In this document: one piece after another, positions 13,214 through 31,188 of the stretch
Layout: every line of letters starts with the position of its first letter
Position numbering within the stretch: position 1 is the stretch's first letter
Origin: a virus
Lineage: Duplodnaviria; Heunggongvirae; Uroviricota; Caudoviricetes
Length of the DNA stretch: 31,872 nucleotides
Strand: one strand, 5' to 3'
IMG/VR virus record: IMGVR_UViG_3300045988_180666
The notes under the pieces: generated by a model
What the model was told of the DNA's origin: nothing
The model's database searches: none
What the model saw: only the letters and a program-made list of their open reading frames with translations
Made by a program: the position numbers and the translations under genes

Positions 13214-13575
13214 GCTACGACTCCTCCCATCAGATAACCACCAAAGAAAACCACTGCCATGAAGGCTGCGAAGCCTAGTGTGGCCTTGACCACCTCGCCG
13301 TAGGTCACGCTCTCGTCGCAGAGTGCGGTGAAGGTCTCGCTCTCGGTCTTGGCGAGCTTCTTGATTTCACACTTGAGGGTATTGATACCCTCCTCTACGC
13401 TGATGCCTGCAGGTCTCACCTGCGCATCACTAATTAAAATTGAATTCTGCATAATTGCCATCTTATAACCATTATAGACCGACCTTGATGTATAAATACA
13501 ATGGTGGCGGTCACATTCACCGTTGGTTATAAGATGGTAGCTTTCCCAGCGAAGGGCAAGTATCTTACGGATCAT
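13210..13575 (-). CDS. Small membrane protein with single C-terminal transmembrane helix; holin/spanin-like candidate
   Basis: ORF track, 121 aa. Extreme C-terminus ATLGFAAFMAVVFFGGYLMGGVVA is one hydrophobic helix. Internal ATG at about 13461 is an alternative start. Function inferred from topology only. Confidence 0.45.
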   Translation of the reverse strand: MIRKILALRWESYHLITNGECDRHHCIYTSRSVYNGYKMAIMQNSILISDAQVRPAGISVEEGINTLKCEIKKLAKTESETFTALCDESVTYGEVVKATLGFAAFMAVVFFGGYLMGGVVA

Positions 13576-13814
13576 GCAACCGCCATATTGAAAAGACCTT
13601 TTTCCCGCTGCCGGGAAAATGATACTTTATAGGCATAAAAAAAGCCCACGGCGTGAAGCCTAGGCGAAACAGTCGCCATCGCTGAGTAGATTACTACTAT
13701 CTTATAACCGATGGCAAAAGTACGAAGAATAATTGGAACCGCCAAAAAAAAAGCGAGAAATTTTGAAATAAATGACTTTTTTATGTTTTAGAGCATAAAA
13801 CAAGGGGGTGAGGA

Positions 13815-13848
13815 ACGAAAAAGCCCCGGATGCTCACGCACCCGAGGC
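13815..13848 (-). terminator. Terminator after lower-GC three-gene cassette
   Basis: Stem GCCCCGG (13823-13829) / CCGAGGC (13842-13848) with one wobble; plus-strand A-run 13816-13822 gives T-run on minus strand; begins 7 nt after the stop at 13855. Confidence 0.5.
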
Positions 13849-13854
13849 TGACAG

Positions 13855-14247
13855 TTATTTTTGGAAATAAACTTTTAAAGGGATTGAATTCTCCACATTG
13901 CCAATTTTGAAAGAGAACTGATAGTTGCCCTCTGCAGGGAACTGGAGGTCGGAGAACTCAAAGATGAAGTTGCTGAAGAGAAACTCATCTGAAGGGTGTG
14001 GCTCAATCTTGGAATTGATGGGCTGGCCAAGAATCATCTTGCCAGTGCTCATCTCTGTAACCTCTGCCGAGAACTCTTGCTGAAGTTTGCTTTCCTCGCT
14101 GTTCATCTTAACTCTCGCTACCATGAAGAGGTTGCTCTTAGGCAGCGGTGCTTTTCTTACCACATAGTGGTCAAAAGTGCCCACGATGGTAAGTTTGCCG
14201 TCATTATCTTGTGCAAAGTCACACAATGCAAGAATATCTATGTTCAT
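13855..14247 (-). CDS. Hypothetical protein, gene 3 of lower-GC three-gene cassette
   Basis: ORF track, 130 aa. GC visibly lower than flanking structural genes. Stop directly followed by hairpin + T-run (13815-13848). Confidence 0.55.
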   Translation of the reverse strand: MNIDILALCDFAQDNDGKLTIVGTFDHYVVRKAPLPKSNLFMVARVKMNSEESKLQQEFSAEVTEMSTGKMILGQPINSKIEPHPSDEFLFSNFIFEFSDLQFPAEGNYQFSFKIGNVENSIPLKVYFQK

Positions 14248-14684
14248 TTTATATGTCCTTTAATGTTAGACTCGATAGCCGAGTGTTTGAAAAGTTTTTT
14301 ATAATTGTCGAATGAATATTTGAGTTTGCTCACCGTGCGCTTGTTTGTGCTCACTAGGTTGGCTCCATGTCTGCCAGAGATGCCTTCCTTGGTATTGAAC
14401 TTCAGAGAATTTCTTTTGGAGTCAACCCAAAGCCTGATGGCATCGCCTTGTATCTTGTCACCCACATTGCCATGGACGTTGAGATCTTCTCGTATTTTCT
14501 TGTCCTCTTCGTTGAGCTCAAGAGCTTCGGTGATTTCTACGGAACTATTTCGGTCTAGTTCGTATAATGTCATCTTTTTGCCCGTGATAGGTTCCTCTTT
14601 GAGTCCCTTCCACTCAGCCCTTCTGGCAATGACATCAGCTTTTTTGCCCTCTATGATTTCACCTTCTTTGATATATATAGCCAT
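14244..14684 (-). CDS. Hypothetical protein, gene 2 of lower-GC cassette
   Basis: ORF track, 146 aa. Lys-rich. 4 nt overlap with gene 3. Confidence 0.55.
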   Translation of the reverse strand: MAIYIKEGEIIEGKKADVIARRAEWKGLKEEPITGKKMTLYELDRNSSVEITEALELNEEDKKIREDLNVHGNVGDKIQGDAIRLWVDSKRNSLKFNTKEGISGRHGANLVSTNKRTVSKLKYSFDNYKKLFKHSAIESNIKGHIK

Positions 14685-15112
14685 TATTGGATACTTTTTT
14701 GCATTGATTTTTCACTGAAAGAGAATACCTCAGCCATATCATCAGGCGAGGTGATGCTCATGAGCGATGGGCTGACCTCAAGAGCCACCTCAATGTCTTC
14801 AATGGAAGCATCTTTATCTTGTTTGATGATGTACTTATCCTCATGCTCTTCAATCTCTTTATCAAACTCTTCTTCGGTAATATTGCCGTCAAGCATTTCG
14901 CAATATAGTTTGAAGTAGTTGCGCTCACGTGTGCGGTTGTTAACGGCACGAGTCATCAACTCCTTGAGTCTGTCGGCAGTACTGATGTTGAAAAAGTTAG
15001 CCTTATTGGTAACACCAGCGAATGCAACCTTGCCAGTACCTTTGTCTTGTATAGCCACAACAGGGCTGCCATCAGTTTGGTATGTTGTATATATAGTCGT
15101 TGTATTGCTCAT
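14684..15112 (-). CDS. Hypothetical protein, gene 1 of lower-GC cassette
   Basis: ORF track, 142 aa. ATG at 15112 is about 29 nt downstream of TGCAAAGATA motif (15141-15150). Acidic C-terminal half. Confidence 0.55.
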   Translation of the reverse strand: MSNTTTIYTTYQTDGSPVVAIQDKGTGKVAFAGVTNKANFFNISTADRLKELMTRAVNNRTRERNYFKLYCEMLDGNITEEEFDKEIEEHEDKYIIKQDKDASIEDIEVALEVSPSLMSITSPDDMAEVFSFSEKSMQKSIQ

Positions 15113-15140
15113 AATTCACATCCTGTTTATATTAACACGG

Positions 15141-15150
15141 TGCAAAGATA
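15141..15150 (-). promoter_or_regulatory. Promoter -7 element for the lower-GC three-gene cassette
   Basis: TGCAAAGATA about 29 nt from ATG at 15112; lies downstream of the radC terminator. Confidence 0.55.
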
Positions 15151-15266
15151 CGGATATTTTTTGTAAATCGCAAATTTAATGATAAATTTAACAACAAAAA
15201 TTGCAATAAAGATTGGAAAATGGTATATAAAAAATGCTCGACCGCTTTTTGGCTCTTGCCAGACGC

Positions 15267-15291
15267 TTTCGCCGCAGGCGAAAATTTTTGG
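15267..15291 (+). terminator. Possible plus-strand terminator hairpin adjacent to the radC terminator
   Basis: Stem TTTCGCC (15267-15273) / GGCGAAA (15277-15283), loop GCA, then ATTTTTGG on plus strand. No plus-strand gene ends here, so function unclear. Confidence 0.3.
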
Positions 15292-15320
15292 AAAATGAGG
15301 GGGAAGGTTTTAGCCTTCCC
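15283..15320 (-). terminator. Rho-independent terminator after radC
   Basis: Stem GGGGAAGG (15299-15306) / CCTTCCCC (15313-15320), loop TTTTAG; minus strand continues TCATTTTCCAAAAATT. Confidence 0.6.
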
Positions 15321-15323
15321 CTT

Positions 15324-15338
15324 ACCTTATTATATATA
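15324..15338 (-). repeat. Copy c (15 nt, inverted) of the AT-rich repeat
   Basis: Plus strand ACCTTATTATATATA = reverse complement of TATATATAATAAGGT; between radC stop and its terminator. Confidence 0.65.
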
Positions 15339-15340
15339 TA

Positions 15341-16024
15341 TTATAGCTTTCCTTTGTCGTGGTAGCTGTAGAAGCCATCCTCAGCCAAGATGATATGGTC
15401 CATCAAGAAAAGTCTCATCACCTCGCACGCCTTGGCTATCTTCTGCGTGAGCATATCGTCCGCCTTGCTCGGCTGCGTGCTGTTCGATGGGTGGTTGTGT
15501 GCCACGGCGATGATGGTTGCATTGTTGAGCACGGCTTCTTTCATTATCAGTCGAACGTCCACCGCTGTCTCGGTGATGCCTCCCTCGCTGAGCTTGGTGC
15601 ACTTTATCAGCCTAAAGTTTTGGTTCATCAGCACTACCCAAAAGCCCTCTGTCTCATTGCAGCCTATCATTGGGCGAAGATAGTTGTAGAGTGCCAGGCT
15701 GCTGCCTAGGTCGGTGTTTCTCGCTACCTTTTCCATTTGGTAGCGTCTGCCTAGCTCGATGGCTGCCTGTAGGGCTATCGCCTTGCAGTCTCCAATTCCT
15801 GGTACCACTTCCAGGTCTTCTATTCTCGCCTTGCCGATGTTGCGAAGCGAGTTGCCCATGATGTTATAAATCTGTCGTGCCTGCTCTTGGCTGTCCTTGG
15901 TACCTGCCCCTCTGTTGATTACCAAAGAAATCAAGTCAACGTTGGTAAGGGTGTCGAAACCTTGGTTATAGGCTCTGTACTGCGGTCTCTCCTCCATACA
16001 AAGATTGTTATAATTTTGTCTCAT
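15341..16024 (-). CDS. radC: RadC-like JAB/MPN-domain protein (UPF0758 family)
   Basis: 227 aa. N-terminal helix-hairpin-helix-like VVPGIGDCKAIALQAAIELG. C-terminal AVAHNHPSNSTQPSKADD matches the JAMM motif HxHx7Sx2D typical of RadC family. Confidence 0.8.
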   Translation of the reverse strand: MRQNYNNLCMEERPQYRAYNQGFDTLTNVDLISLVINRGAGTKDSQEQARQIYNIMGNSLRNIGKARIEDLEVVPGIGDCKAIALQAAIELGRRYQMEKVARNTDLGSSLALYNYLRPMIGCNETEGFWVVLMNQNFRLIKCTKLSEGGITETAVDVRLIMKEAVLNNATIIAVAHNHPSNSTQPSKADDMLTQKIAKACEVMRLFLMDHIILAEDGFYSYHDKGKL

Positions 16025-16039
16025 ATCTTTTGTTATTTG

Positions 16040-16564
16040 TTAGTTATACATTCTCTTTGTTCTCGCTAGGAACATCGCTCCCATCACTTGTGCGCCACAT
16101 TCGGCTAGCTCGTTGGCGAACTCTCGGGCGGTCGCTCCGCTCGTCACCACGTCGTCGAAGATGATGACTTTCTTTCCGCTGAAGTACTCTCTATCGAGTG
16201 CCACTCTGTAGTCGAAGCTCTCACACACTCTGTCTGTGCTGAAGTGCTTGGCTGTGCGCTCTCCATAGATGGAAATGTGCTCGTTTCCGTTCTGTACCTT
16301 TGCGCCTTGGCTCACCTTTTGGGCGAAGCGAGAAAAGCGCTTGGTGTACTTCTTTGAGTTGGCTGCTGGAGCGCAAACCATCACGAAGTCGCTGGCTTTG
16401 TCGCCATAGGTGTTGACGAAAGAGCTGACCACCATATCGGCAGCTGCGTCTGTCGCCCACTGCTTTCCATCCTTGAAGGCAAAGATGAAGTTTCTCACTT
16501 GCTCTGCTTGTGCTGAGCGGTCGAAACGCTTGGAGCTGTACTCGTAATAATTGAAAGTTTTCAT
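16040..16564 (-). CDS. Phosphoribosyltransferase (PRTase) domain protein, ComF-like
   Basis: 174 aa. KKVIIFDDVVTSGATAREFANELAECGA matches the PRPP-binding loop of type I PRTases. No N-terminal zinc-ribbon. 15 nt upstream of radC. Confidence 0.7.
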   Translation of the reverse strand: MKTFNYYEYSSKRFDRSAQAEQVRNFIFAFKDGKQWATDAAADMVVSSFVNTYGDKASDFVMVCAPAANSKKYTKRFSRFAQKVSQGAKVQNGNEHISIYGERTAKHFSTDRVCESFDYRVALDREYFSGKKVIIFDDVVTSGATAREFANELAECGAQVMGAMFLARTKRMYN

Positions 16565-17360
16565 ACGCTTAAAATTTTTATTCTAGCCAGAGGGAGGAAG
16601 GAGCTTTTTTATTTGAACTCGTCTTTGCCTGCCCGTCTGAGAGTTTTTTTTATTCTGTCCGTCGGTCGTTTTTGTCGCTTTTTACGGTGCGATGCAGACG
16701 AGCGGAGAAGAGGTATGAAAGCCAAGGAATTTTGCAAAAAGTTTATGGAAAACCGTCATCTCTGATTGCGGAAGGCTGCCGAAAAGTTTTTGGAAAATAG
16801 ATTTATCGGTACTTGGTGCATGCCGTCCGCCGTACCTTTGCACCCGAAAAAGAGATAATGACCGATGGATAACCGATAAAGGGAAAAGCTCTCGGACAGG
16901 AAAAGCGGGCAAAGAAAAGGCTCTGCCTTACCTTGGTGGTTAAGCCTTAGCGACGTTTGAGCGCCATCACGGTCACCACCGCTTGAAAATTCGCAAATTT
17001 TAACCCTAGCGTATGAAATGAAAGATGGAAAATTTGCGTCATCAAAAACACCATGTTTTTCAGACTTCAGGAGGAAAAACATACCTTGGAGCGATGAAAT
17101 CGCAGCATTTGGCATGCTTCGACCCCGAGGTTGAAGATGCCGAATGTGTCGTTTTGCGACAGGTTTTCCACACCCACGGATTGGAAAACCCCGATTTTAT
17201 CGTGGTTTTAGGGATTCAAAGGGAAAATAATTCCCCTTTGTCGGCGATAGCACCCCCCACCGCCCTACGCCCGAGCGCGCCTTCCGCCCCCTTGGAAAAG
17301 ACGGAATATGTAAAAGACCGTTAACGTTTTTGTAGGAATGTAAAAAGCCAAAAGGCACGA

Positions 17361-17462: not shown

Positions 17463-19064
17463 CTATAGCATGGAACCCGTGGCGATGTAGCCATCAGCCT
17501 GAGGGTATTTCTCCATGCCAATCATGAGCGTGTCGTAGGCATCGGAGCCATCGGTGCGAGCCTCCAACTTATCCTCCTCGGTCTCAGCCAGCTTCTCGCC
17601 TCGCTTATCCTTCTTGCCGTTGTAGACCCCGGCCAGGCGGATGGAGATGAGCAGGTCTTCGTTGTTCTCGCTGTTGATCATCGAGCGATGCTCAGCCTTG
17701 CCGAGGAACATGCGGTTGAGCAGAAGCATCTTTTCGAGATGTCCCATCGGGTTGCCCAGATAGACCTCGTTGACATACCAGCCATGGTCGGTGAGGTAGT
17801 CGGTGATGAAGGTATGGAAGTCATCGTTCATCAGGGCGTAGTTGTTGCCCACGAAGGTGGAGTCGTAGTAGAAGTTGACCTCTTTGCACCGATGGTACTC
17901 ATAGTACTGCATGAACTTGTCGAGCAGGGCTGGCAGCTTCTCCTCATACTTCACGAAGATGCTCTTGAGGCAGCGTGCCTCGCCCCGCAGGTTGTCTTGT
18001 CCGACGGCTATCCAGTTGATGAGGGCGTTGGCATCGAAGGCGATGCAGAGCGGACGGTCGGGGTCAACGTCGGCATCCATTCTGGAATCTACATGCTTGA
18101 GCTTGTCGATGTCGTAGCCCAAGCCATCGAGGTAGGCGAGGTTGGGCGCCGTGTATAGGTTGGCATCCCTGAGGTTGGAGTAGAAGCCATCGAGCGAGAT
18201 GGAAGGTCGCTTGCACATGATGGAGGTCTGGAAGGTGAGGGCAGGGAGGTCTCGCTTCATCTGCTTGATGAACTCCATGCCGAGCACCTCGATGTTATAG
18301 ACCGATGAGTACTCTTTATAGAAGAGTGCCTTGGAGCGCAGTTGCGCCAGGAGCTGACCAATCTCTCGGAGTCGGCGCTGGGCATAGCCTGAGACATGGC
18401 CCGAGGTCTTGATGCGGTTGCGTATGTCATACTCCTCTACCACGAGCGAGGCGATGGCGTCGATGAGCAGCTGGTCGCAGTCTTTCTTGTAGTTGAGGAA
18501 CCAGGAGCCCTTCTTGGTCACGGGCATATCAGAGGTGATGAGCATGCCATGGTGGTAGTAGTGCTGGCCGAAGAGGTTGACGTTGCCTCGATTGGCAGGG
18601 AAGGTCTCGTCTTTGAGCTGTTCGAAGTTGATGAACTTCGCCTCGTCGATGTCGAGGTAGTCGAGCGAGAGGGAGTTGGAGGTACCCTTGCGGTCTTGCG
18701 AGATGATGGTACCGATGGAGCCGTTATAGAAAGAGATGGTGTTCTCCCAGTTGCTGGGCGGTATGACCGGGTCGGGCCATCCCAGTTTTTTGGGAGGCTT
18801 GACCCCGATGAGATAATGCTTGCCCCGGTGGAAGCCCCATCGCTCCCAGTGCTGAAGCATCGACGGTATGGTGTTGGTGAGGCATCGCTTGGTGTTGGCG
18901 GATACGAAGCCGCCGTTGCTGCCAGGCATGCGCTGCATGTTGCGCAGGTTGAAGGTGGCGTGGAGAATGCTCTTGCCGATGCCTCGACCGCCCACGACCA
19001 CGTTGTCGCGGGCGGAGATGAGGTTGACCTCCATCTGGGCTGGGTTGAGATATTGATCTATCAT
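17463..19064 (-). CDS. terL: Terminase large subunit
   Basis: 533 aa. Walker A-like VVVGGRGIGKS near N-terminus, Walker B-like LDYLDIDEA. Size and position beside a small upstream gene with ATGA overlap fit a phage TerL. Confidence 0.75.
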   Translation of the reverse strand: MIDQYLNPAQMEVNLISARDNVVVGGRGIGKSILHATFNLRNMQRMPGSNGGFVSANTKRCLTNTIPSMLQHWERWGFHRGKHYLIGVKPPKKLGWPDPVIPPSNWENTISFYNGSIGTIISQDRKGTSNSLSLDYLDIDEAKFINFEQLKDETFPANRGNVNLFGQHYYHHGMLITSDMPVTKKGSWFLNYKKDCDQLLIDAIASLVVEEYDIRNRIKTSGHVSGYAQRRLREIGQLLAQLRSKALFYKEYSSVYNIEVLGMEFIKQMKRDLPALTFQTSIMCKRPSISLDGFYSNLRDANLYTAPNLAYLDGLGYDIDKLKHVDSRMDADVDPDRPLCIAFDANALINWIAVGQDNLRGEARCLKSIFVKYEEKLPALLDKFMQYYEYHRCKEVNFYYDSTFVGNNYALMNDDFHTFITDYLTDHGWYVNEVYLGNPMGHLEKMLLLNRMFLGKAEHRSMINSENNEDLLISIRLAGVYNGKKDKRGEKLAETEEDKLEARTDGSDAYDTLMIGMEKYPQADGYIATGSML

Positions 19065-21916: not shown

Positions 21917-23035
21917 TTACTCCTTGCCCTCAGCTCCGGTATCGTCTGCAGAAGAATTCTTCTGCTCTGCATCGCTAGCTGTGTTGCTGCTTGCAGGATC
22001 AGCACCTGAACCCTTTGTGATGAGCGATGTGGTACCATCGTTTGTGATGAACAGGGCTCGTTCTTTATTGATGCTCTCGTACTGGCAACCTAAGAACTTG
22101 GTGGCGATGAAGTCGAGCTTCCAAGGGTGGTACTTTTCTACGCTGATCTTCTCCTCGTCGCTGTTGTTTGCCTCGTTGACACCCACGAGCATATTGTTGC
22201 GAGTGGTGAGCTGGAAGAACGGAGCGTTCTTCTTGTTGATGAGTGGTACCATCTCAACGTTGTCGAAACCCTCGACGGTGTTGTGGTTGTAACCGGTATT
22301 GTATGGCACATTGCCAAACTTATTGAGGTAGTTGCGGTTGTAGAGATTGATGAACGCCTGTGGAACGTAGAGATAAAGCTTCTCTTCGCCAATCAGTTCT
22401 TCGTCAGCCTCCTCGCAAATGGCCTGTGCGAAGTCAACGGCGTTATCGCTGCTGATATTCTTACCACTGCCCAAAATATCTGAAACTTTGATGAGGTTGC
22501 CGAGGTCTCGAGACAGCTTGCCATTAGTCAACTCAGTCTTGGCGATGGTATCGAAACCATTGAAGAGGTCTTTTGAGCCTTTGCCCTCGTCGTTGCGCAC
22601 GGCATCGAAGAGGTGGAGGTTGAGGTTCTTGCCCAGCTTGAGCGCCAAGAGCTGCAGCACCTGAAGGGTGATTGGCACGTTCTTAAGCGCTTCGCCATTC
22701 ATGGCGTTGGCCCCCCAAATGGTGGAATAAACTGAGTTCGGGGAGAACTTGATGTCAACGTTGCCGAGGAACACCTGCAAAGTGCGAGGTGTAATCTTTA
22801 CGCCACCATCGCCCACGCGGTTCTCGTCGTATGGACCAAACTCTGCGTTGCCGAGCAACTCGCCCACGGTCTCTGAAACTCTGATGCCCGGGCGCAGGGT
22901 CATGTACTTGAGTGACTGAGCCAAGCCTTTGGTAGGCATCGTAATCAACTTCGAACGGTAAGTTTTCGCAGTGTTCTGCAGCTGTACATCGACATCTACA
23001 GGCACAATGAATTTATTATCTGCCATATTATGCAA
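21917..23035 (-). CDS. Putative major capsid protein
   Basis: ORF track, 372 aa. Immediately downstream of the ClpP-like protease gene, which is the usual capsid position. Size fits HK97-fold capsids. No motif confirmation. Confidence 0.45.
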   Translation of the reverse strand: MHNMADNKFIVPVDVDVQLQNTAKTYRSKLITMPTKGLAQSLKYMTLRPGIRVSETVGELLGNAEFGPYDENRVGDGGVKITPRTLQVFLGNVDIKFSPNSVYSTIWGANAMNGEALKNVPITLQVLQLLALKLGKNLNLHLFDAVRNDEGKGSKDLFNGFDTIAKTELTNGKLSRDLGNLIKVSDILGSGKNISSDNAVDFAQAICEEADEELIGEEKLYLYVPQAFINLYNRNYLNKFGNVPYNTGYNHNTVEGFDNVEMVPLINKKNAPFFQLTTRNNMLVGVNEANNSDEEKISVEKYHPWKLDFIATKFLGCQYESINKERALFITNDGTTSLITKGSGADPASSNTASDAEQKNSSADDTGAEGKE

Positions 23036-24053
23036 ACTGATTTAAAACATCCAACACTTGATCTGAGCAGAAATCCTCGACCTTGGTGTCATCGACAGCA
23101 GTGTGCGTGTCGCCACCAGGCTCTCCCTCCAGATCCTTCACTTTATCCTTCAGGTCATCTCTCTCCTTTTCGAGATTCTTGACCTTAGTCTCTAACTCCT
23201 TCTTCTCGTCCTTGACCTTCTGAAGCTCTGTGTCTTTGTCGGTCACGGCCTTGGAGTCGGCAGCGATCTTATCCTCCAGTTTCTGCATCTGCTCCTGTGA
23301 GATTGTGCAGTTCTTTGCGGAATCTTCTGCCTCAATGCCCTCGATATTGAGGACATTGTTGATGTGAGTCCATTTTTTGATCATATTAATAATTTTATTT
23401 TGTGATTTATCTTTGCCGAATAATCGGTCGATGATGCTTGGCTTTTTATCATACCAGGAGTTAACAACCTCTGGGAGAACAGGAAGGTTGTTGTACTTGA
23501 TGAAGTCTTGCGTCTGCTCGGTGATGTCGGCAGGCTTGCCATCCATGGCTTCATCGACGAGACCCAGTTCGATGCACTCATCGACGGTGTGCCACATCGC
23601 TTCGGACATCACCTTGACGATGTCCTCGTGCTTCTTGCCCGAGCGATCGCAGTAAACGTTGGCGATGATGTTGTCGATTTTCTGCTGGTTCTCTTGCTGT
23701 TTTTGAAGTTGCTCGATGAGCGAGCCTATCTGCTCCTCGTTGAGCGCAGACCACACAAACTGCTCGGTAGAGCACTTGTGTACCAGGAGCAAGCTATATT
23801 TGCTCATGCGAATCTTGCTGGCACCCATCGCACAGATGGTGGCAGCAGAGGCAGAGAAGCCCGCCTGGAAGTCAACGGTCACGTCGCCATGGGACTTGAA
23901 CATCTGACAGATGGCGAGACCTGCGGAGACCTCGCCACCCAAGGAGTCGATGGCAACATCGACGTGCTTATCTTTGTTGGCCTTAAGAACATCGCGAACC
24001 ATGAGCTTGGTCCACGAGCCAATATATCCTGTGATAGAAATTTGGTACTTCAT
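23028..24053 (-). CDS. ClpP-like prohead serine protease with C-terminal coiled-coil (scaffold-like) extension
   Basis: 341 aa. DSLGGEVSAGLAI, GFSASAATICAMGA and LLLVHK resemble ClpP/S14 catalytic regions. C-terminal 100 aa is Lys/Glu/Asp-rich heptad-like (KVKDEKKELETKVKNLEKERDDLKDKVKDLE). Confidence 0.75.
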   Translation of the reverse strand: MKYQISITGYIGSWTKLMVRDVLKANKDKHVDVAIDSLGGEVSAGLAICQMFKSHGDVTVDFQAGFSASAATICAMGASKIRMSKYSLLLVHKCSTEQFVWSALNEEQIGSLIEQLQKQQENQQKIDNIIANVYCDRSGKKHEDIVKVMSEAMWHTVDECIELGLVDEAMDGKPADITEQTQDFIKYNNLPVLPEVVNSWYDKKPSIIDRLFGKDKSQNKIINMIKKWTHINNVLNIEGIEAEDSAKNCTISQEQMQKLEDKIAADSKAVTDKDTELQKVKDEKKELETKVKNLEKERDDLKDKVKDLEGEPGGDTHTAVDDTKVEDFCSDQVLDVLNQFA

Positions 24054-24612: not shown

Positions 24613-25197
24613 TTAATCTTTGCTAAATCTTGTTGTAGATGTTAAATTTACGCCTCTTTTTGCGTGTTGATCACGCATTCTGTAGAAACATTGGCGTACG
24701 GTATCCTCGTAATCGATGCCAATGCCATGCTGTTCGCACCATGCCGAAATGAGCGATGAAAGCTTGCATGAGCGGTCGGCGATGTCTTTGAGCGAAGCCC
24801 AGAGATCCATCTTGAAGAGGTCGGAAATCATCTCTTTGACGGCACGTCTGGCACGTGGCCCGAGGTAGTTGTACTCTCGCACAGGCTTAGCCTTGGAGTC
24901 AGGCAGCTCGATGGCAAGATACTCTTCGGGATGGGTGAGCCATCGGCTCTGCTCGAACTCCTCGTCGTGGAAGGTATGCTTGACACTTTGGTGCAGTTGG
25001 CTGGCATCAGCCTGCTGCATCTCTTGGATGTTCTCTTGGTCGATAGGCGATAGGTTGACAACGGGAGGTCTGCTGGTGAACTTGCGGAGCACAGCCACCT
25101 CGTTGCCGATGGCAGGGAAGACCACTGGGTTGCCATAAGCTCGGTAAGCCCATTGTCTGATGTGGGTAGGAACTTTGATGTAAACAATTGGATTCAT
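24613..25197 (-). CDS. Hypothetical phage protein (about 194 aa)
   Basis: Track ORF 24613..25209 begins with a non-ATG start; first ATG at about 25197 (MNPIVYIKV...) lies about 20 nt downstream of TGCAAAGATA motif (25216-25225). Confidence 0.55.
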   Translation of the reverse strand: MNPIVYIKVPTHIRQWAYRAYGNPVVFPAIGNEVAVLRKFTSRPPVVNLSPIDQENIQEMQQADASQLHQSVKHTFHDEEFEQSRWLTHPEEYLAIELPDSKAKPVREYNYLGPRARRAVKEMISDLFKMDLWASLKDIADRSCKLSSLISAWCEQHGIGIDYEDTVRQCFYRMRDQHAKRGVNLTSTTRFSKD

Positions 25198-25215
25198 ATA
25201 GCTATGCAATTTTCG

Positions 25216-25225
25216 TGCAAAGATA
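25216..25225 (-). promoter_or_regulatory. Promoter -7 element for the 194-aa gene
   Basis: TGCAAAGATA about 20 nt from ATG at about 25197. Confidence 0.55.
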
Positions 25226-25339
25226 CAAAGAAAATTTGAAATAACTAACGATAATCGGTAAAAACTAACTTTTATCAGTAAATTTGGTGTGATATAATTT
25301 CGTCCGAAAAGTTTGTATTTTTGTATCGTACAAACAAGG

Positions 25340-25593
25340 CTCTGTAACTAGCTGATAATCAATACTATTTTTGTGATACAATTTTCTGATACAGAAATTG
25401 TAACTCTTTAGCTTTTGTAACTTGGGGTTTTGTCGAGGTCGAAGACCTGTAGGAGAAGGGGCTTGTTACAAACTTGAAAAACTTTGTAACAGAGTTGTAA
25501 CGCAACTTTGTAAACATCGGCAAGGCGGCTTAACTCCATCTTTTATAATTATTTACCTCTTTTGCCAACATTATGTTACAGAGTTACAAAGGA
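25340..25593. repeat. Iteron-like array of at least 9 TTGTAAC / GTTACAA elements in both orientations
   Basis: Copies at about 25343, 25399, 25416, 25464 (rev), 25485, 25496, 25507 (variant), 25576 (rev), 25584 (rev). Includes near-repeats TGTAACAGAGTTGTAAC and TGTTACAGAGTTACAAAG. Downstream of primase gene. Confidence 0.6.
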
Positions 25594-25733
25594 TTTGTAT
25601 AAAATAAAAGAAAGGGGTGTGGGGAAAACGATGGCACGGGGCGTGAAGGAGGATAGGGAAGGCCCATCGAGACACCCAGGACACCCCCATTGGCCAATGG
25701 AGGGGTAGCGAGACGAAACATCGCCCATGGCAA

Positions 25734-25770
25734 CGAAAAAAGGGAGCGACGGCCAATGCGCATCGCTCCC
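25734..25770 (-). terminator. Rho-independent terminator after primase-helicase gene
   Basis: 8 bp GC stem GGGAGCGA (25742-25749) / TCGCTCCC (25763-25770); plus-strand A-run 25736-25741 gives TTTTTT on minus strand. Confidence 0.65.
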
Positions 25771-25951
25771 TCGTAACATGGGAAAAGAATTATAAATCAG
25801 CAAAAATCTGCCTATGAAATCAGCCCTCGTCTGCTTGCAAAAATAGTGAAAAATTGCTTGAAAATTTAGCCGAAAATATTTGCATAATTCAGATATTTTT
25901 TGTACCTTTGCACTATAACTTGGGGCTATCTATTCTATTATATATGGATGG

Positions 25952-28906
25952 CTAGAAAGGTTTATCACTATCTTTATCTACCTTGCTCCAGTCAATGGTA
26001 GATTGATATTCACCCCCAGCTGCAGGGACATCAGCCTTGGCAGCTTGTTTATCCTCTTTTTTATCATCACTCTTCTTGCTTCGGAGATAGATCATCTCGA
26101 CAGGGCTGCCGTCTGGGTTAGCTGGATCGCGTCTGATGATGCGGTGCTGGCTGTTGCAGAGATCAGCTGGGTTCAGCTCTTGGATGTATGGACACAGCTC
26201 GACGAAGGCTCTGAGCTTTTTGGTGAAGCTCTGTGTGGTCGCCTTGTTGATGCCTGAGAACTGCTTGAAGTCATTGAACGCACGCTCTCTCACGATAAAT
26301 GTATCGAGTCGCTCGCTCTCTTCTGAGAAGTAGGATGCAGCCCAGTCTTCGAAGTTGACACCCATGTCGGCCTTGAACTTGCGCTTGATGATGTTATCCA
26401 TCGGTGGCATGATCTTGATAGGTTCGCCAGCCAAGGAGAGATAGAAACGACAGCACTGCAGGAAAAAGTTGATGTCAGCATTCCACTCATCCTCAGTGTA
26501 TGTCTTTGAGAAGAGATCTTCGTCGAAGTCATCACGGATGCTTCGGGTCTCTTGGTAATCATTCTCCTCTGTGCGCTGATGGTAATAGTCGGAGAACACC
26601 ATATAGAGCAGTCTCGCCTCTGAGGAAGGGTCGAAGTCTGCCGGCACGTAGTTGGTGGTGAAGGCAATCTTCGGGCTATCCTCGAAAGGAATTGTGAAGC
26701 TCTGGTTGTTCTTTGGGTTGACTGTCATATCTGAAGTAATGTTATCGTAAAATAAACCTGTGTTGAGATAGCGGTCACAGTCATCGAGGAGCAGCATCTG
26801 GGTGTGCTGTGTCACCTGATCGAAGACGTGTGGGTTGTCCATCAGCTTAGGGTTGCGTCCGGAAAGCTTGACTGTTTTCATCAGCAGTGAAAGCGTCTTG
26901 AAGAAGAAACTCTTACCGGAACGGCCGTTGCACTCGTTGTTTTCACCAATCTTGTTGTCCATCGCCATCGGAGCCCAAGCCCTGGATGGTGCCTTGTAAT
27001 GATGGAGCATGTAGCCGAAGGTGAAAATCTTGTTTATCAAGTTCTGCTTTTGCTCTTGTATCTCGTTGTCGGCAAGCCCTTCGCCAGCGATGTCGAAGAG
27101 GTGTGCCTTGTGGTATGCCTCTTTCTCCTCGATGCTCTTGTCCTCAAAAGCATACTCTAGCTCTTTGCGCCAGTAGGTGCGAGAGGCGTTGATGAGATAG
27201 CCGAAGAAGTGGGACTTCACGTTCTTGACCTCGATGTCGAACTTCGGCCTGCCATCCTCGTCGATGGTTCGGGTGATGGAGAACATGTCATCCAACTTCT
27301 TGAAGTTGTGGTTGATGACATTCTCTTGCCAAACATAGTTTTTGAGCGAGCTGCCCTCACGCTGGTACTCGTTTAGTCCATCTTTGGTGACCTCGACGCT
27401 GACACGAGGGAAGAAGAACAACTGCGAGTGGTTGGTGTAGCTGGTGAAGTCTAGCGTAATCTCTTGGAGCGAGTCGAGCGCCGATGCCGACAGCTTTGGC
27501 GTGTTGAGCACCAAGTTAAGGATGTCACGCTTCTCAGCTCTCTCGATGACCCATTGGCGGCAGAACTCACGGATGTCTCTCGTGGTGATGAGCTTGACGA
27601 TGTTGCCCGTGATGCGAACATATTTGGTGATGGTCGAGTTGTCATCGTGCAAGGTATAGAAACCATTGAGACGAAGAAAATTGTAGAGGCACGCCGTGTC
27701 GATGTAGTGGTCCCAGGTGTTAGCCTTTTTGTTGAGCTTGCTCACCCAAAATCGGGCTGGCATCGCCAGTGTCATGAGGTTGCGGAAGTCTTTGCGAGTA
27801 TTGCGCAGCTCCATCCAGTCTCGCAGGTCTTTGCGCCCCTTGCCACGGTTGTCGTGGTAGGTGCGAAGCCAAGAAGGCAACCATATCGTATGGATGTCGA
27901 TGAAGCGCAGGGCAAGCTCTGTGCCCTTGGCGATGCCCGTCTCGTCGATGTCGGGTATATTGTAGAGCACCTCGACATACTTCATAATCTCTCGGTACTC
28001 CTCGTCGCTGAGCTTGTAGGTCTCGGAGTTGAACCATAACGGGTTGTAGCCCATGGAACGGCAGCAGAGACTGTCACGCTCGCCACTGCAGATGAAAGCC
28101 TCGGGAAGTTTCTTCTCCTTGTAAGGCTTGGACTCGTCTGTGTTGGTCTTGTTGTACTCAGCCTCTTCACGGCGGTTGAACTCGTGATAGGCAGCCTTCA
28201 GCTCAGCTAGGCCATTGATGTATTGCTTAGGCTTGATGCCGTCTGGGGTGTAAGAGAATCGCCACTGCTTTTGGTAGTTGAGAGGCTCATATATCTTGTA
28301 GAACTTAACCTCAGGCTTGTCGCCTTCAGCTGGGCGAACCAAGCACTCACGCATAAAGATAGGGTAGTGCTCGTTGCTGTGCTTAATCTTGACCTTGCGG
28401 TCTTTGACGTATCCTATCCACTTGGCGGAATGCCAGTTGAGCGCATCGACGTGCTCTTGCTTGACGTTTGGACCCAGTACCTTCAGTTCATCTTCGGTGA
28501 ACTTCTCGTTCAGCTCGAAAGGTCTGGTACCATCTTTCTCGTTGATGGTGGCATCACGCTCTGTGAACGTAGGCTTGTTGACCTCTTTTTTGAGTTCATC
28601 GCTAACGTTGTATTCGGAAGCCAGTCGCAGGATAGCATCAGGAAAGCGGTCGATGCACTTCTCTCTCATGTAGAGGTCGATAGGTGACTCGGCAGATCCG
28701 TCGCCGCCGAAGTCTGTCACTCGCCAGCAGTCTTTGAACTTTTTGAGACTGCAGGAAGGTGTTTTCTCATTGCGGATGGCAAAGTGCTTTTTAGGCGTGC
28801 CAGTCGTGCAATATTTCTGGATGCATTCTTTTGCGTCCGGGTATAGTGAGATGATGATGTCGAGACCATCATCTGTAGCTTGATAAATTTGTTCTGCTTT
28901 GATCAT
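25952..28906 (-). CDS. Replicative primase / SF3 (D5/P4-like) helicase
   Basis: Track ORF of 994 aa. P-loop NGRSGKSF followed about 45 aa later by Walker B-like MLLLDDCD in C-terminal third. Track start overlaps the promoter -7 element, so the ATG at about 28906 (MIKAEQIYQ...) is the likely start. Confidence 0.7.
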   Translation of the reverse strand: MIKAEQIYQATDDGLDIIISLYPDAKECIQKYCTTGTPKKHFAIRNEKTPSCSLKKFKDCWRVTDFGGDGSAESPIDLYMREKCIDRFPDAILRLASEYNVSDELKKEVNKPTFTERDATINEKDGTRPFELNEKFTEDELKVLGPNVKQEHVDALNWHSAKWIGYVKDRKVKIKHSNEHYPIFMRECLVRPAEGDKPEVKFYKIYEPLNYQKQWRFSYTPDGIKPKQYINGLAELKAAYHEFNRREEAEYNKTNTDESKPYKEKKLPEAFICSGERDSLCCRSMGYNPLWFNSETYKLSDEEYREIMKYVEVLYNIPDIDETGIAKGTELALRFIDIHTIWLPSWLRTYHDNRGKGRKDLRDWMELRNTRKDFRNLMTLAMPARFWVSKLNKKANTWDHYIDTACLYNFLRLNGFYTLHDDNSTITKYVRITGNIVKLITTRDIREFCRQWVIERAEKRDILNLVLNTPKLSASALDSLQEITLDFTSYTNHSQLFFFPRVSVEVTKDGLNEYQREGSSLKNYVWQENVINHNFKKLDDMFSITRTIDEDGRPKFDIEVKNVKSHFFGYLINASRTYWRKELEYAFEDKSIEEKEAYHKAHLFDIAGEGLADNEIQEQKQNLINKIFTFGYMLHHYKAPSRAWAPMAMDNKIGENNECNGRSGKSFFFKTLSLLMKTVKLSGRNPKLMDNPHVFDQVTQHTQMLLLDDCDRYLNTGLFYDNITSDMTVNPKNNQSFTIPFEDSPKIAFTTNYVPADFDPSSEARLLYMVFSDYYHQRTEENDYQETRSIRDDFDEDLFSKTYTEDEWNADINFFLQCCRFYLSLAGEPIKIMPPMDNIIKRKFKADMGVNFEDWAASYFSEESERLDTFIVRERAFNDFKQFSGINKATTQSFTKKLRAFVELCPYIQELNPADLCNSQHRIIRRDPANPDGSPVEMIYLRSKKSDDKKEDKQAAKADVPAAGGEYQSTIDWSKVDKDSDKPF

Positions 28907-28932
28907 AATTCTTTTCCATTGTAAATTTGCTT

Positions 28933-28940
28933 GCAAAATT
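28933..28940 (-). promoter_or_regulatory. Promoter -7 element for primase-helicase gene
   Basis: Plus-strand CAAAATTA = reverse complement TAATTTTG, about 28 nt upstream of ATG at about 28906. Confidence 0.45.
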
Positions 28941-29902: not shown

Positions 29903-30280
29903 ATGTTTAATGGTCAGATAATCAGAAAGTTAATGTCGGATGCTGGCTTAACTAAAAAAGAGTTTGAAAGACGTATGTTCGGTAGTAAATCGACCGACCT
30001 CAACCATTTGGAAAAAGCGAAGAATCTTCGCAGTGACACTCTCGAACGTCTGCGTGATGTGTTGAAGTGCTCTATGGATGACTTCTTTACAGCACCCTCA
30101 TGGGCTGAGAACGGAAAGGGGACAGTCGTAGGCTCTAACAATGTGCTGTCAACAGTAGCCATCGGCAACGAAGTGATGGAAGCCCAATATCTCAAGGAGT
30201 TGCTCTTGGAGAAGGACAAACGCATCAGCACTTTGGAAAATTATATCAAGCTTCTGGAGACTAACTTAAATAAGGACTAA
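29903..30280 (+). CDS. XRE-family helix-turn-helix transcriptional repressor (phage CI-like), with C-terminal coiled-coil
   Basis: 125 aa. N-terminal IRKLMSDAGLTKKEFERRMFGSKSTDLNHLEKAKNLRSDTLERLRDVLKCSMDDFF is a typical HTH_XRE. No S24 peptidase domain. Only phage gene on plus strand. Confidence 0.65.
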   Translation: MFNGQIIRKLMSDAGLTKKEFERRMFGSKSTDLNHLEKAKNLRSDTLERLRDVLKCSMDDFFTAPSWAENGKGTVVGSNNVLSTVAIGNEVMEAQYLKELLLEKDKRISTLENYIKLLETNLNKD

Positions 30281-30309
30281 TACGAAACATAATTCGTAAG
30301 ATGAATCCT

Positions 30310-30325
30310 TATATATAATAAGGTG
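30310..30325 (+). repeat. Copy b of 16 nt AT-rich repeat TATATATAATAAGGTG
   Basis: Exact 16-mer, 30 nt downstream of repressor stop, near presumed prophage right boundary. Confidence 0.7.
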
Positions 30326-30486
30326 TATAAAATATATCGTATAATCTCAGCAGTGATATCCAACTCGTTAGTCCTGCCGCCGCAACTAGTTTCGGGTAAG
30401 AAGTTGGTAAACAACATCTTATCCGATTTCTGTTTTTCTATTGGAACTATATCAGAACGAAATACTTTCCATTCCACATTCCTTTG

Positions 30487-30542: not shown

Positions 30543-30591
30543 CACATTGATAATTTATTGTGCAACCAAATCTCGATGGAGGTACTTCGTT

Positions 30592-31188
30592 ATGTCAATA
30601 TCAAAAACTAGACAGAAATTAGTGGATGTCGCTCGACAACTCTTTGCAAAGAACGGAATCGCCAATACAACGATGAATGACATCGCTGTGGCTTCTGGTA
30701 AGGGACGTCGCACGCTTTATACCTATTTTAGTCGTAAGGAGGACGTCTATTACGCAGTGATAGAGTCGGAATTGGAGCGCCTTTCTGACAAACTTGACGA
30801 AGTGGCCGCCAGTAAGATTCGACCTCAAGACAAAATCATCGAATTGATTTATACCCACTTGAGCATGATCAAGGAGACTGTTGTCAGAAATGGAAATCTG
30901 AGAGCTGAGTTCTTCCGCAATATTTGGATGGTGGAAAAGGCTCGCAAGAATTTCGATGAAGACGAGATAGAACTTCTCAGGAAGGTTTATTCCGAGGGCA
31001 AGGCGGACGGCGAGTTTGACATCGATAATGTAGATTTGGTGGCTGACATCACACACTATTGCATCAAAGGTCTCGAAGTTCCGTTTATCTATGGGCGATT
31101 GGGACATGGCTTGAACGTGGAGTCGAGCAAACCGCTGGTTGCCAAGGTTGTCTATGGTGCTTTAGGAAAGTCGGGAATGAAGTTGTAA
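30592..31188 (+). CDS. TetR/AcrR-family transcriptional regulator (host-type)
   Basis: Track ORF starts at 30547; ATG at 30592 (MSISKTRQKLVDVARQLFAKNGIANTTMNDIAVASGKGRRTLYTYF) gives the canonical TetR N-terminal HTH. Bacteroidetes-type promoter upstream. Confidence 0.8.
   Translation: MSISKTRQKLVDVARQLFAKNGIANTTMNDIAVASGKGRRTLYTYFSRKEDVYYAVIESELERLSDKLDEVAASKIRPQDKIIELIYTHLSMIKETVVRNGNLRAEFFRNIWMVEKARKNFDEDEIELLRKVYSEGKADGEFDIDNVDLVADITHYCIKGLEVPFIYGRLGHGLNVESSKPLVAKVVYGALGKSGMKL

What the first reader, a model, noticed from the sequence alone, without database searches (positions are those of the whole stretch)
25340..25770. Iteron-like TTGTAAC array plus GC-rich palindromic island next to the primase-helicase gene: candidate replication origin
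Within about 250 bp there are at least nine copies of a 7-9 bp element (consensus about TTTGTAAC) in both orientations, including longer near-repeats (TGTAACAGAGTTGTAAC vs TGTTACAGAGTTACAAAG; CTCTGTAAC at 25340 is the inverse of GTTACAGAG at 25576). An AT-rich stretch (25230-25330) and a GC-rich island with the perfect 14 bp palindrome CCATTGGCCAATGG (25687-25700) flank it. This layout of repeated initiator-binding sites next to an AT-rich unwinding region, beside the initiator/primase gene, is typical of phage and plasmid origins.
Basis: partly seen in the sequence, partly recalled or inferred. Interest (0 to 1): 0.6.

Follow-up and report, generated by a model that had tools for sequence, protein, structure and literature searches.

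The report
Phage replication origin beside primase-helicase gene
A cluster of nine short TTTGTAAC repeats just downstream of a gut Bacteroidales phage's primase-helicase gene is real, is conserved across a large phage family, and is most likely the phage's replication origin; this is an ordinary kind of origin, but it had not been described in this phage group.

Summary
The repeats are real. Eight of the window's 14 TGTAAC copies, plus one TTTGTAAA, lie in 25340-25590, far above chance. The 994-aa neighbour is a primase-helicase at fold level, with a DnaG-type primase, a D5/SF3 helicase and a winged helix. Its best structural matches include SaPI5 PriRep and the phage P4 origin-binding domain.

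In about 160 related viral loci and Bacteroides phage BT-TP2, the same non-coding gap follows this gene. It always holds 5-11 copies of a short repeat. The repeat sequence differs between clades (GTTACAAA, ATCACAAA, GTAACAAA, GTTGCAAA, GATACAAA and others).

The layout is the same in every clade examined: two repeats, a 48-88 bp AT-rich spacer, then repeats facing the other way. This matches the SaPI origin layout.

A natural recombinant pair keeps primase and repeats about 99% identical while the late-operon promoter and next gene are swapped. The repeats therefore belong to the replication module.

- The GC-rich island follows the early-operon terminator and is poorly conserved. Its 14-bp palindrome is private to the closest relatives.
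- The 25230-25330 AT-rich stretch is the late-operon promoter region. The likelier unwinding element is 25540-25574.

Verdict: probable iteron origin, a new member of a known kind, untested experimentally.

The parts
25952..28936 (-). Primase-helicase gene. The mechanical ORF starts at TTG 28936; the likely start is ATG 28906, where relatives begin to align. Domain order: DnaG-type zinc-binding and Toprim primase domains, a D5/SF3-type helicase (Walker A G671-S676, Walker B D718-D719), and a C-terminal winged-helix-like domain at about residues 846-953.
25879..25910 (+). Bacteroidetes-type promoter (TTTG, 20 nt, TAccTTTG) pointing into the 3' end of the primase gene, so antisense. It is an accessory element, present only in some clades.
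   Evidence: Sequence. Conservation is 100% across 42 close relatives. The boxes and spacing are kept with diverged spacer sequences in the L137, L141 and L160 clades, and the element is absent from other clades.
25735..25770 (-). Intrinsic terminator of the early (primase) operon: GGGAGCGATG..CGTCGCTCCC followed by a T run.
   Evidence: Sequence. RNA fold of 25595-25800, -63.7 kcal/mol, z -3.5, with this hairpin. Conserved, with G-U-compatible changes, in relatives. Analogous hairpins occur in all clades inspected.
25633..25734 (.). Variable GC-rich island, including the 14-bp palindrome CCATTGGCCAATGG (25687-25700). It is not a conserved element.
   Evidence: Column conservation is 0.09-0.6. 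A 38-nt indel holding the palindrome is present only in the closest relatives. No Rfam match.
25610..25632 (-). Conserved C-rich polypyrimidine tract (CCCCACACCCC on the primase-sense strand; GGGGTGTGGGG at 25614-25624 on the + strand). It borders the repeat array.
   Evidence: Conservation 0.87-0.90. Equivalent C/T-rich tracts lie upstream of the first repeat pair in most clades. The upstream 50 nt is 72-82% pyrimidine in 6 of the 8 representatives that could be scored.
25575..25590 (-). Right-hand iteron pair: CTGTAAC and TTTGTAAC on the minus strand, 8 bp apart.
   Evidence: Conservation 0.91-0.93. A tandem pair at the same relative position occurs in all clades examined.
25516..25574 (.). 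Spacer between oppositely oriented iterons. Its AT-rich part, 25540-25574, is the proposed unwinding element.
   Evidence: The 40-bp duplex stability of 25540-25579 is -43.5 kcal/mol, against a window mean of -55.3 with sd 4.7. A spacer of 48-88 bp, 58-74% AT and 61-77% purine on the primase-sense strand is present across clades although its sequence is not conserved.
25397..25514 (+). Main iteron cluster. TTGTAAC on the + strand at 25398, 25415, 25484 and 25495, plus TTTGTAAA at 25507. One copy on the minus strand at 25465-25471.
   Evidence: Iteron columns have conservation 0.91, against 0.71 for neighbouring columns. Phasing of 10-13 bp in the central cluster is conserved across clades.
25340..25348 (+). 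Outlying iteron copy, CTCTGTAAC.
   Evidence: conservation 0.74.
25286..25330 (-). Highly conserved block GATACAAAAATACAAACTTTTCGGACGAAATTATATCA (read on the minus strand). It marks the distal end of the replication module. Its own function is unknown.
   Evidence: Conservation 0.94-1.0. Also present in the L048 and L138 clades. In L138 versus L140, homology ends immediately after this block.
25218..25225 (-). The -7 box (TAtcTTTG) of the late-operon promoter, in front of the 194-aa gene.
   Evidence: Sequence. Conserved as TTTGTATCTTTGC.
24613..25197 (-). 194-aa first gene of the late operon ('p194'). Function unknown, with a possible helix-turn-helix. It is not the likely reader of the repeats.

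Best explanation
The TTTGTAAC array (25340-25590) is the phage's origin of replication, of the iteron type served by a self-loading primase-helicase.

Inferred mechanism:
1. The early operon is transcribed leftwards on the minus strand. It ends with the 994-aa primase-helicase gene and an intrinsic terminator at 25735-25770.
2. The protein's winged-helix domain binds the 7-8 bp repeats. These converge from both sides on a 59-bp spacer whose AT-rich part is 25540-25574.
3. Oligomerisation on the two repeat sets melts the spacer and loads the D5/SF3 helicase ring.
4. The DnaG-type primase domain of the same protein then primes synthesis.

What is shown here:
- the repeats, their statistics and their conservation;
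- the clade-specific change of repeat sequence;
- the conserved layout;
- the fold-level identity of the protein;
- the inheritance of the array together with the primase gene.

What is inferred: binding, melting, and the array's use as an origin.

The GC-rich island and its palindrome are not part of the mechanism. Only the conserved C-rich tract at 25610-25632 that borders the array may be.
For: 1. Non-random and unique. Six of the window's ten TTGTAAC lie in 192 bp. Local shuffles never reach this. It is the only cluster in the window, and the equivalent is the only cluster in the complete 45-kb BT-TP2 genome.

2. Conserved. The synteny primase gene, then a 550-850 bp gap (occasionally up to 1.4 kb), then the p194 gene holds in 75 loci with both genes. 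Iteron columns score 0.91 against 0.71 for their neighbours.

3. Clade-specific specificity. In about 100 distinct loci, every clade carries 5-11 copies of its own heptamer at the same place. The types seen are GTTACAAA, ATTACAAA, GTAACAAA, ATCACAAA, GTCACAAA, GTTGCAAA, GATACAAA, GATACGG and GTTACAC. This is what a co-evolving phage-encoded reader predicts, and not what a host factor predicts.

4. Layout. Two repeats, a 48-88 bp AT-rich and purine-skewed spacer, then repeats in the opposite orientation phased at 10-13 bp, in all clades examined. SaPI origins are described in the same terms. They have 6-12 short iterons immediately downstream of rep, an AT-rich centre, and at least two iterons on each side pointing in opposite directions. 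They are read by a winged helix in the Rep C-terminal domain (PMC9371898).

5. The protein. Structural matches are DnaG-type primase, D5/SF3 helicase and a winged helix. They include SaPI5 PriRep, the phage P4 origin-binding domain, and the RepE and Pi iteron initiators.

6. Module linkage. L138 and L140 are about 99% identical from the primase through the whole array. They then diverge abruptly, with different late promoters and p194 proteins only 28% identical. BT-TP2 keeps GTTACAAA although its p194 is 16-21% identical to the window's. L056 and L149 share the same putative p194 recognition helix but have different repeats (ATCACAAA against GTTGCAAA). In contrast, the primase wing segment (GRIxxx...DMIY) differs between most repeat classes, although it is the same in the GTTACAAA and GTTACAC classes. 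Repeat-type distance correlates better with primase distance (Spearman 0.44-0.48) than with p194 distance (0.27).
Against: - There is no experimental or read-depth evidence of initiation here.
- GC skew shows no polarity change at the site, either in the window or in BT-TP2. All genes are co-oriented, so this is uninformative rather than negative.
- The covariation evidence rests on few independent contrasts and is confounded by phylogeny and physical linkage. The winged-helix domain correlates with repeat type no better than the adjacent part of the primase does (0.48 against 0.44).
- The array begins about 360 bp after the stop codon, beyond a terminator, not directly at the gene end.
Confidence: 0.62

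Rival explanations
1. The repeats are operator or enhancer sites for a phage transcription factor that controls the early-to-late switch. It would act by activating or repressing the late promoter in front of p194, or by modulating read-through of the early terminator. The reader would be p194 itself or another early-operon protein.
For: The array lies between the early terminator and the late promoter. It is bracketed by two outward-facing Bacteroidetes-type promoters. The model of p194 has a possible helix-turn-helix, and its BT-TP2 counterpart is annotated 'transcriptional regulator'. One helix of p194 shows RQ..Y against KM..Q changes that partly follow the repeat type. An activator encoded in the early module, together with its sites, would also be inherited as a unit with the primase.
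Against: The p194 sequence does not track the repeat type. L138 and L140 have the same array but p194 proteins only 28% identical. BT-TP2 has the same repeat with a p194 16-21% identical to the window's. L056 and L149 have the same p194 helix but different repeats. The recombination junction separates the array from the late promoter. The array spans about 250 bp and its far end is about 390 bp from the p194 start, which is far for a bacterial activator. The convergent repeats around an AT-rich spacer and the winged-helix primase-helicase fit an origin better.
Confidence: 0.22
2. The repeats are recognition sites for another DNA transaction: terminase (pac/cos), integrase arm-type sites (attP), or a partition centromere.
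For: Short repeats in both orientations also occur in cosB/pac regions, attP arms and parS sites. This rests on general knowledge only; no tool result here points specifically to any of them.
Against: The candidate large terminase (17463-19064, a weak phrog_2 hit) is about 6 kb away. In BT-TP2 the terminase is about 8 kb from the array and the integrase is at the other end of the genome. Many IMG/VR contigs end 0.5-6 kb upstream of the primase gene, and none ends in the array. Phage genes flank the array on both sides in the window and in all relatives, so it is not a split att site. No ParA or ParB genes were seen.
Confidence: 0.05
3. The repeats are a chance feature of AT-rich, TTTG-rich Bacteroidetes intergenic DNA. 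Promoter-like TTTG and TAnnTTTG words would create apparent repeats.
For: The region is AT-rich and carries genuine TTTG/TAnnTTTG promoter boxes. Where two repeats are tandem 8 bp apart they spell TAACTTTG, which mimics a -7 box.
Against: Dinucleotide-preserving shuffles of the region itself never reproduce the count. The repeats are more conserved than their surroundings. The repeat word changes between clades while the layout stays the same.
Confidence: 0.01

Closest known systems
SaPI replication origins served by Rep / PriRep self-loading helicases (Staphylococcus aureus pathogenicity islands; PMC9371898 and the Ubeda et al. 2007 and 2012 papers cited there)
   Same: The initiator is a primase fused to an SF3-type helicase with a DNA-reading winged helix, and SaPI5 PriRep is the best Foldseek match. 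The origin lies downstream of the initiator ORF. It has 6-12 very short repeats, an AT-rich centre, and at least two repeats on each side pointing in opposite directions. The repeat sequence is specific to each element.
   Different: There is no detectable sequence homology. The primase domain here is DnaG/Toprim-type with a zinc-binding domain. The repeats are 7-8 bp rather than 5-6. The array is separated from the gene by a terminator and a variable GC-rich segment of about 360 bp. The element is a complete temperate Bacteroidales phage, not a satellite.
Phage P4 alpha protein with ori and crr (from my own knowledge of Ziegelin et al. 1993/1995 and Yeo et al. 2002; PDB 1KA8)
   Different: P4 needs a second repeat cluster (crr) several kb from ori. 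Only one cluster exists here and in the complete BT-TP2 genome. The repeat sequence is different, and there is no sequence-level homology.
pRN1 ORF904 replicon (PMC4234260)
   Same: A multifunctional primase-helicase gene is followed by a terminator and then by the origin element, in the non-coding DNA downstream.
   Different: The pRN1 origin is a 100-nt stem-loop, not a repeat array. Its primase is of the prim-pol (AEP) type, and the host is an archaeon.
Iteron plasmids (RepE/mini-F, Pi/R6K)
   Different: Plasmid iterons are about 17-22 bp, direct and evenly spaced. Their initiators are not helicases and need DnaA and DnaB-DnaC. Here the repeats are 7-8 bp, in both orientations, and the initiator carries its own helicase and primase.

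Membership tests
Iteron origin of a self-loading primase-helicase (SaPI Rep/PriRep type) | The initiator is an SF3/D5-type helicase, with or without a fused primase, that has a winged-helix DNA-binding domain | tested here: met
Iteron origin of a self-loading primase-helicase (SaPI Rep/PriRep type) | Six to twelve short repeats in the non-coding DNA downstream of the initiator ORF | tested here: met
   Nine copies lie in 25340-25590, starting 362 nt after the stop codon. Every related clade has 5-11 copies. The array is not immediately adjacent to the gene: a terminator and a GC-rich segment intervene.
Iteron origin of a self-loading primase-helicase (SaPI Rep/PriRep type) | An AT-rich centre with at least two repeats on each side pointing in opposite directions | tested here: met
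   The pair at 25575-25590 (minus strand) faces the + strand copies at 25484, 25495 and 25507 across 25516-25574. The AT-rich part of this spacer is among the least stable duplex segments locally. The same pattern was found in 8 of 10 clade representatives by an automatic rule, and by eye in the remaining two.
Iteron origin of a self-loading primase-helicase (SaPI Rep/PriRep type) | Cognate specificity: the repeat sequence differs between elements together with the initiator | tested here: inconclusive
   At least nine repeat types exist. They follow the primase better than they follow p194 (Spearman 0.48 and 0.44 against 0.27), and the primase wing differs between most types, though it is shared by the GTTACAAA and GTTACAC types. 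The L138/L140 pair links the array to the primase. However, the independent contrasts are few and the genes are physically linked.
Iteron origin of a self-loading primase-helicase (SaPI Rep/PriRep type) | The initiator binds and melts the repeat region, and the region supports replication | not testable with these tools
   Requires EMSA or footprinting, a plasmid replication assay, or marker-frequency data.
Phage P4 alpha / ori-crr system | Domain order: DnaG-type primase, SF3 helicase, C-terminal winged-helix origin-binding domain | tested here: met
Phage P4 alpha / ori-crr system | A second, distant repeat cluster (crr) required in cis | tested here: not met
   There is only one cluster in the 31.9-kb window and only one in the complete BT-TP2 genome.
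Phage P4 alpha / ori-crr system | Sequence homology to P4 alpha or the P4-family primase models | tested here: not met
   There are no Pfam, NCBIfam or PDB sequence or profile hits, apart from a sub-threshold DUF5906 match.
Classical iteron plasmid origin (RepE/Pi type) | Direct repeats of 17-22 bp in one orientation, read by a non-helicase Rep | tested here: not met
   The repeats are 7-8 bp, extending at most to about 12 bp (AAGTTTGTnACA), and lie in both orientations. The only initiator candidate is a helicase-primase.
Bacteroidetes sigma-A promoter (TTTG at -33, TAnnTTTG at -7; from my own knowledge of Bayley et al. 2000) | TTTG, 19-21 nt, then TAnnTTTG, upstream of a transcription unit | tested here: met
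   This applies to the flanking promoters, not to the repeats. TTTG-N20-TAccTTTG lies at 25879-25910 on the + strand. TAtcTTTG lies at 25218-25225 on the minus strand, 20 nt before the p194 ATG region. The match is by sequence only; no transcript data are available.

The most novel reading that the evidence does not exclude
This phage family may carry a natural set of at least nine mutually orthogonal initiator/origin pairs. Specificity would be set by a few residues in the recognition helix and wing of the primase-helicase's winged helix. Examples are GRIIRR for GTTACAAA, GRIQ(K/R)(S/A) for (A/G)TCACAAA, GRIQQR for GTAACAAA, GRIQRK for GTTGCAAA and GRISRR for GATACAAA.

The replication module ends at a conserved boundary block (25286-25330). 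At this block, modules appear to be exchanged by recombination with different late operons.

If true, the diversification would reflect replicon-level incompatibility or competition between co-resident gut prophages. It would also give a ready-made toolkit of orthogonal origins for Bacteroides and Prevotella genetics.
Probability: 0.35. Interest if true: 0.55.

Novelty: new member of a known kind. Interest (0 to 1): 0.36.

Why it matters
No replication origin appears to have been described for these phages. They are BT-TP2-like temperate phages of Bacteroides and Prevotella. BT-TP2 homologues were found in the genomes of 24 strains from 8 species, and it has many hits in gut phage databases (PMC12694917). 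A literature search for Bacteroides temperate-phage iteron origins found nothing.

Locating the origin and its probable initiator has three uses:
- It gives a testable handle on how these phages replicate after induction.
- It explains a 620-850 bp non-coding gap that is conserved in about 160 metagenomic viral contigs.
- It could supply replicons, or origin decoys that inhibit the phage, for gut Bacteroidales.

Mechanistically it is an expected arrangement, so specialists would not be surprised. The clade-specific change of repeat sequence is the most useful new observation.

Tried and rejected
- Rfam, at gathering and at permissive thresholds, and tRNA/tmRNA scans found nothing in the region. 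The GC-rich island is therefore not a known RNA. Apart from the terminator hairpin its fold is unremarkable and its sequence is not conserved.
- Pfam, NCBIfam and PDB sequence and profile searches of the primase-helicase, of its C-terminal domain and of p194 gave no significant hits. Identification rests on predicted structure.
- GC skew of the window and of the complete BT-TP2 genome shows no switch at the site. I set it aside as uninformative because all genes share one strand.
- The sigma-70 promoter and terminator scan missed both the Bacteroidetes-type promoters and the main terminator, because of its loop-length limit. These were found by eye and by regular expression.
- The idea that p194 reads the repeats was considered because of its position and possible helix-turn-helix. 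It was down-weighted.
- Packaging, attP and partition-site readings were rejected on gene context and contig ends.
- The idea that the 54-nt imperfect inverted repeat (25210-25263 against 25865-25918) marks an invertible segment was rejected. The two arms are simply two similar outward-facing promoters, and the match is only 70%.

Full report
**What is there.** The finding lies in a 754-bp non-coding gap (25198-25951) between two minus-strand genes. Upstream in the direction of transcription is a 994-aa ORF (25952-28936; the likely start is ATG 28906). Downstream is a 194-aa ORF (24613-25197, 'p194'). It is followed by a 139-aa ORF, a ClpP-like head maturation protease (23028-24053) and further structural genes. 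The window is a temperate siphophage-like genome of Bacteroidales. One homologue of the 994-aa protein is named from Prevotella. The only cultured relative found is Bacteroides phage BT-TP2 (PMC12694917).

**Checking the observation.**
- TTGTAAC occurs 10 times in the window and 6 of those lie in 25398-25589. Whole-window shuffles expect 2.3 and never give 10.
- TGTAAC occurs 8 times in 25343-25588.
- A degenerate TTTGTAAA at 25507 brings the total to nine copies, six on the + strand and three on the - strand.
- When only the AT-rich intergenic region is shuffled with its dinucleotides kept, no heptamer reaches six copies in 1000 trials. TGTAAC averages 0.34 copies against 8 observed.

**The neighbouring protein.** It has no Pfam, NCBIfam or PDB sequence hit. 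The only exception is a sub-threshold DUF5906 match over the Walker A/B region. An AlphaFold2 model built on 19 homologues has moderate confidence (pLDDT 69.6).
- Its best Foldseek match in the PDB is the SaPI5 primase-helicase (E 7e-5). Monkeypox E5, vaccinia D5, Twinkle and papillomavirus E1 follow.

So 'primase-helicase' is correct at fold level, and the domain order is that of P4 alpha and SaPI PriRep.

**Comparative evidence.** Two scans of IMG/VR returned about 160 loci encoding relatives at 51-100% identity.
- In the 75 loci where both flanking genes could be located, the order is the same as in the window. It runs primase-helicase gene, a non-coding gap of mostly 550-850 bp (up to 1.4 kb in one clade), then a p194 homologue.
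- The 54% clade shows the same order by profile comparison.
- Within the 88-100% clade the repeats sit at the same alignment positions. They are more conserved than their surroundings, 0.91 against 0.71 across 42 distinct sequences.
- More distant clades still carry an array at the same place, but of a different word. The words are GTTACAAA, ATTACAAA, GTAACAAA, ATCACAAA, GTCACAAA, GTTGCAAA, GATACAAA, GATACGG and GTTACAC, each in 5-11 copies.
- A repeat whose sequence changes by lineage while its number, place and layout stay the same points to a phage-encoded sequence-specific DNA-binding protein that co-evolves with it.
- The cluster is unique in the window and in the complete 45-kb BT-TP2 genome.

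**Anatomy, read in the primase-sense direction (right to left in the window).** The order is the same in every clade examined:
1. The stop codon.
2. In some clades only, a Bacteroidetes-type promoter on the opposite strand.
3. A strong intrinsic terminator (window 25735-25770).
4. A GC-rich segment of variable sequence and length.
5. A conserved C-rich polypyrimidine tract (25610-25632).
6. A tandem pair of repeats (25575-25590).
7. A spacer of 48-88 bp that is AT-rich and purine-skewed but not conserved in sequence (25516-25574).
8. A cluster of repeats in the opposite orientation, with 10-13 bp phasing, followed by further copies in both orientations (25340-25514).
9. A highly conserved block (25286-25330).
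10. The late promoter (-7 box TAtcTTTG at 25218-25225) and p194.

The 40-mer at 25540-25579, which covers the AT-rich part of the spacer, is about 2.5 sd less stable than the window average.

**Comparison with known origins.** SaPI origins are described as follows. They have six to twelve short iterons immediately downstream of rep. They have an AT-rich centre with at least two iterons on each side pointing in opposite directions. They are read, without ATP, by a winged helix in the C-terminal domain of the self-loading Rep helicase (PMC9371898). The window matches each sequence-level feature of that description. The pRN1 replicon is another case in which a primase-helicase gene is followed by a terminator and then the origin (PMC4234260).

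**Which protein reads the repeats?** The two obvious candidates flank the array, so I looked for contrasts.
- L138 and L140 are about 99% identical from the primase through the entire array, up to the block CTTTTTCGGACAGAATTAYATCAGACGCTG. Homology then stops abruptly. Their late promoters differ and their p194 proteins are only 28% identical.
- BT-TP2 uses the same GTTACAAA repeat as the window, although its p194 is only 16-21% identical.
- L056 (ATCACAAA) and L149 (GTTGCAAA) share the same putative recognition helix in p194.
- The primase wing segment differs between most repeat classes. It reads IIRR, IIRK, IQ(K/R/H)(S/A), IQQR, IQRK, IQQK or ISRR. The GTTACAAA and GTTACAC classes are an exception: they share the IIRR wing and differ instead in the recognition helix.
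- Repeat-type distance correlates better with primase distance (Spearman 0.48 for the winged-helix region, 0.44 for the preceding 100 residues) than with p194 distance (0.27).

These contrasts are few and phylogenetically confounded. Even so, they consistently place the array in the replication module and not in the late-operon module. They cannot exclude another early-operon protein.

- The GC-rich island is not a conserved origin element. It begins with the early-operon terminator. The remainder is the least conserved part of the gap (0.09-0.6). The 14-bp palindrome lies in a 38-nt segment present only in the window's closest relatives. Only the C-rich tract next to the repeats is conserved.
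- The AT-rich stretch at 25230-25330 lies beyond the module boundary and contains the late promoter region. The AT-rich element flanked by convergent repeats is 25516-25574.

**Rivals.**
- A transcriptional operator or enhancer array for the early-to-late switch remains possible (about 0.2). The array sits between the early terminator and the late promoter, and p194 may be a helix-turn-helix protein.
- Packaging, attP and partition readings are unlikely on gene context and contig ends.
- Chance is excluded.

**Verdict.** This is a probable iteron-type replication origin served by a P4-alpha/SaPI-PriRep-like primase-helicase, with confidence about 0.6. It is a new member of a known kind, in a widespread but little-studied family of gut Bacteroidales temperate phages. 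Nothing about the mechanism is unexpected. The useful additions are the family-wide conservation, the clade-specific repeat words, and the mapped module boundary.

Noticed in passing
window 25879-25910 (+ strand), transcription start expected near 25916-25920: A textbook Bacteroidetes promoter (TTTG, 20 nt, TAccTTTG) points into the 3' end of the primase-helicase gene, so it is antisense. It is 100% conserved in 42 close relatives, more than the coding sequence. Three more distant clades keep the boxes and spacing with diverged spacer sequence, and other clades lack it. It could drive an antisense RNA that limits the initiator, or transcription that activates the origin.
   Followed up: partly
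window 25286-25330; L138 and L140 about 500-560 nt after the primase stop: The block GATACAAAAATACAAACTTTTCGGACGAAATTATATCA (minus strand) is the most conserved part of the gap. It is shared across clades whose primases are only about 65% identical. In the L138/L140 pair, homology ends exactly after it, so it behaves as a boundary where replication modules and late operons are recombined.
   Followed up: partly
window 24613-25197 (-): The 194-aa first gene of the late operon belongs to a family with no Pfam, PHROG, NCBIfam or PDB match. It is present after the array in every clade. It has an invariant IPDSKAKP motif and an AWCE.HGI...TVRQ.YYRMR C-terminal helix pair. Its confident AF2 model (pLDDT 84) gives only weak winged-helix and homeodomain matches. 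Function unknown.
   Followed up: partly
window 25218-25232, 25312-25327, 25374-25395: A second repeat family, TTTGTATC/TGATACA-like with about five copies, occupies the promoter-proximal half of the gap and overlaps the late -7 box. The same word (GATACAAA) is the main repeat of the distant L077/L089 clades.
   Followed up: no
window 25614-25658 (+ strand): On the + strand, the conserved C-rich tract and the adjacent island give four G-runs (GGGG TGT GGGG ..13.. GGGG ..14.. GGG). This is a possible G-quadruplex or polypurine tract bordering the array. Only the first two runs are conserved.
   Followed up: no
L072 1-400 and L065 (intergenic 1430 bp): In these clades the segment around the early terminator carries a further, different repeat family (CAACTTGTRAACTCAT / GTTCACAAGTT / CTCGTCAACT, 6-7 copies) in addition to the TTTGTTAC array.
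   Followed up: no
window 29903-30280 (+), 30547-31188 (+): A Cro/C1-type HTH gene lies divergent from the early operon and is the likely phage repressor. It is followed by a TetR-family gene. Identical IMG/VR contigs end at positions corresponding to window coordinates of about 30282-30424. The phage genome or prophage boundary is therefore probably between these two genes, and the right end of the window may be host DNA.
   Followed up: no
window 15341-16024 (-), within a low-GC stretch at 13000-17000: A RadC-like JAB-domain gene (Pfam E 1e-35) sits in a segment whose GC content drops to 42-46%, against 50-58% around it. This suggests an accessory or moron region in the middle of the structural genes.
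   Followed up: no
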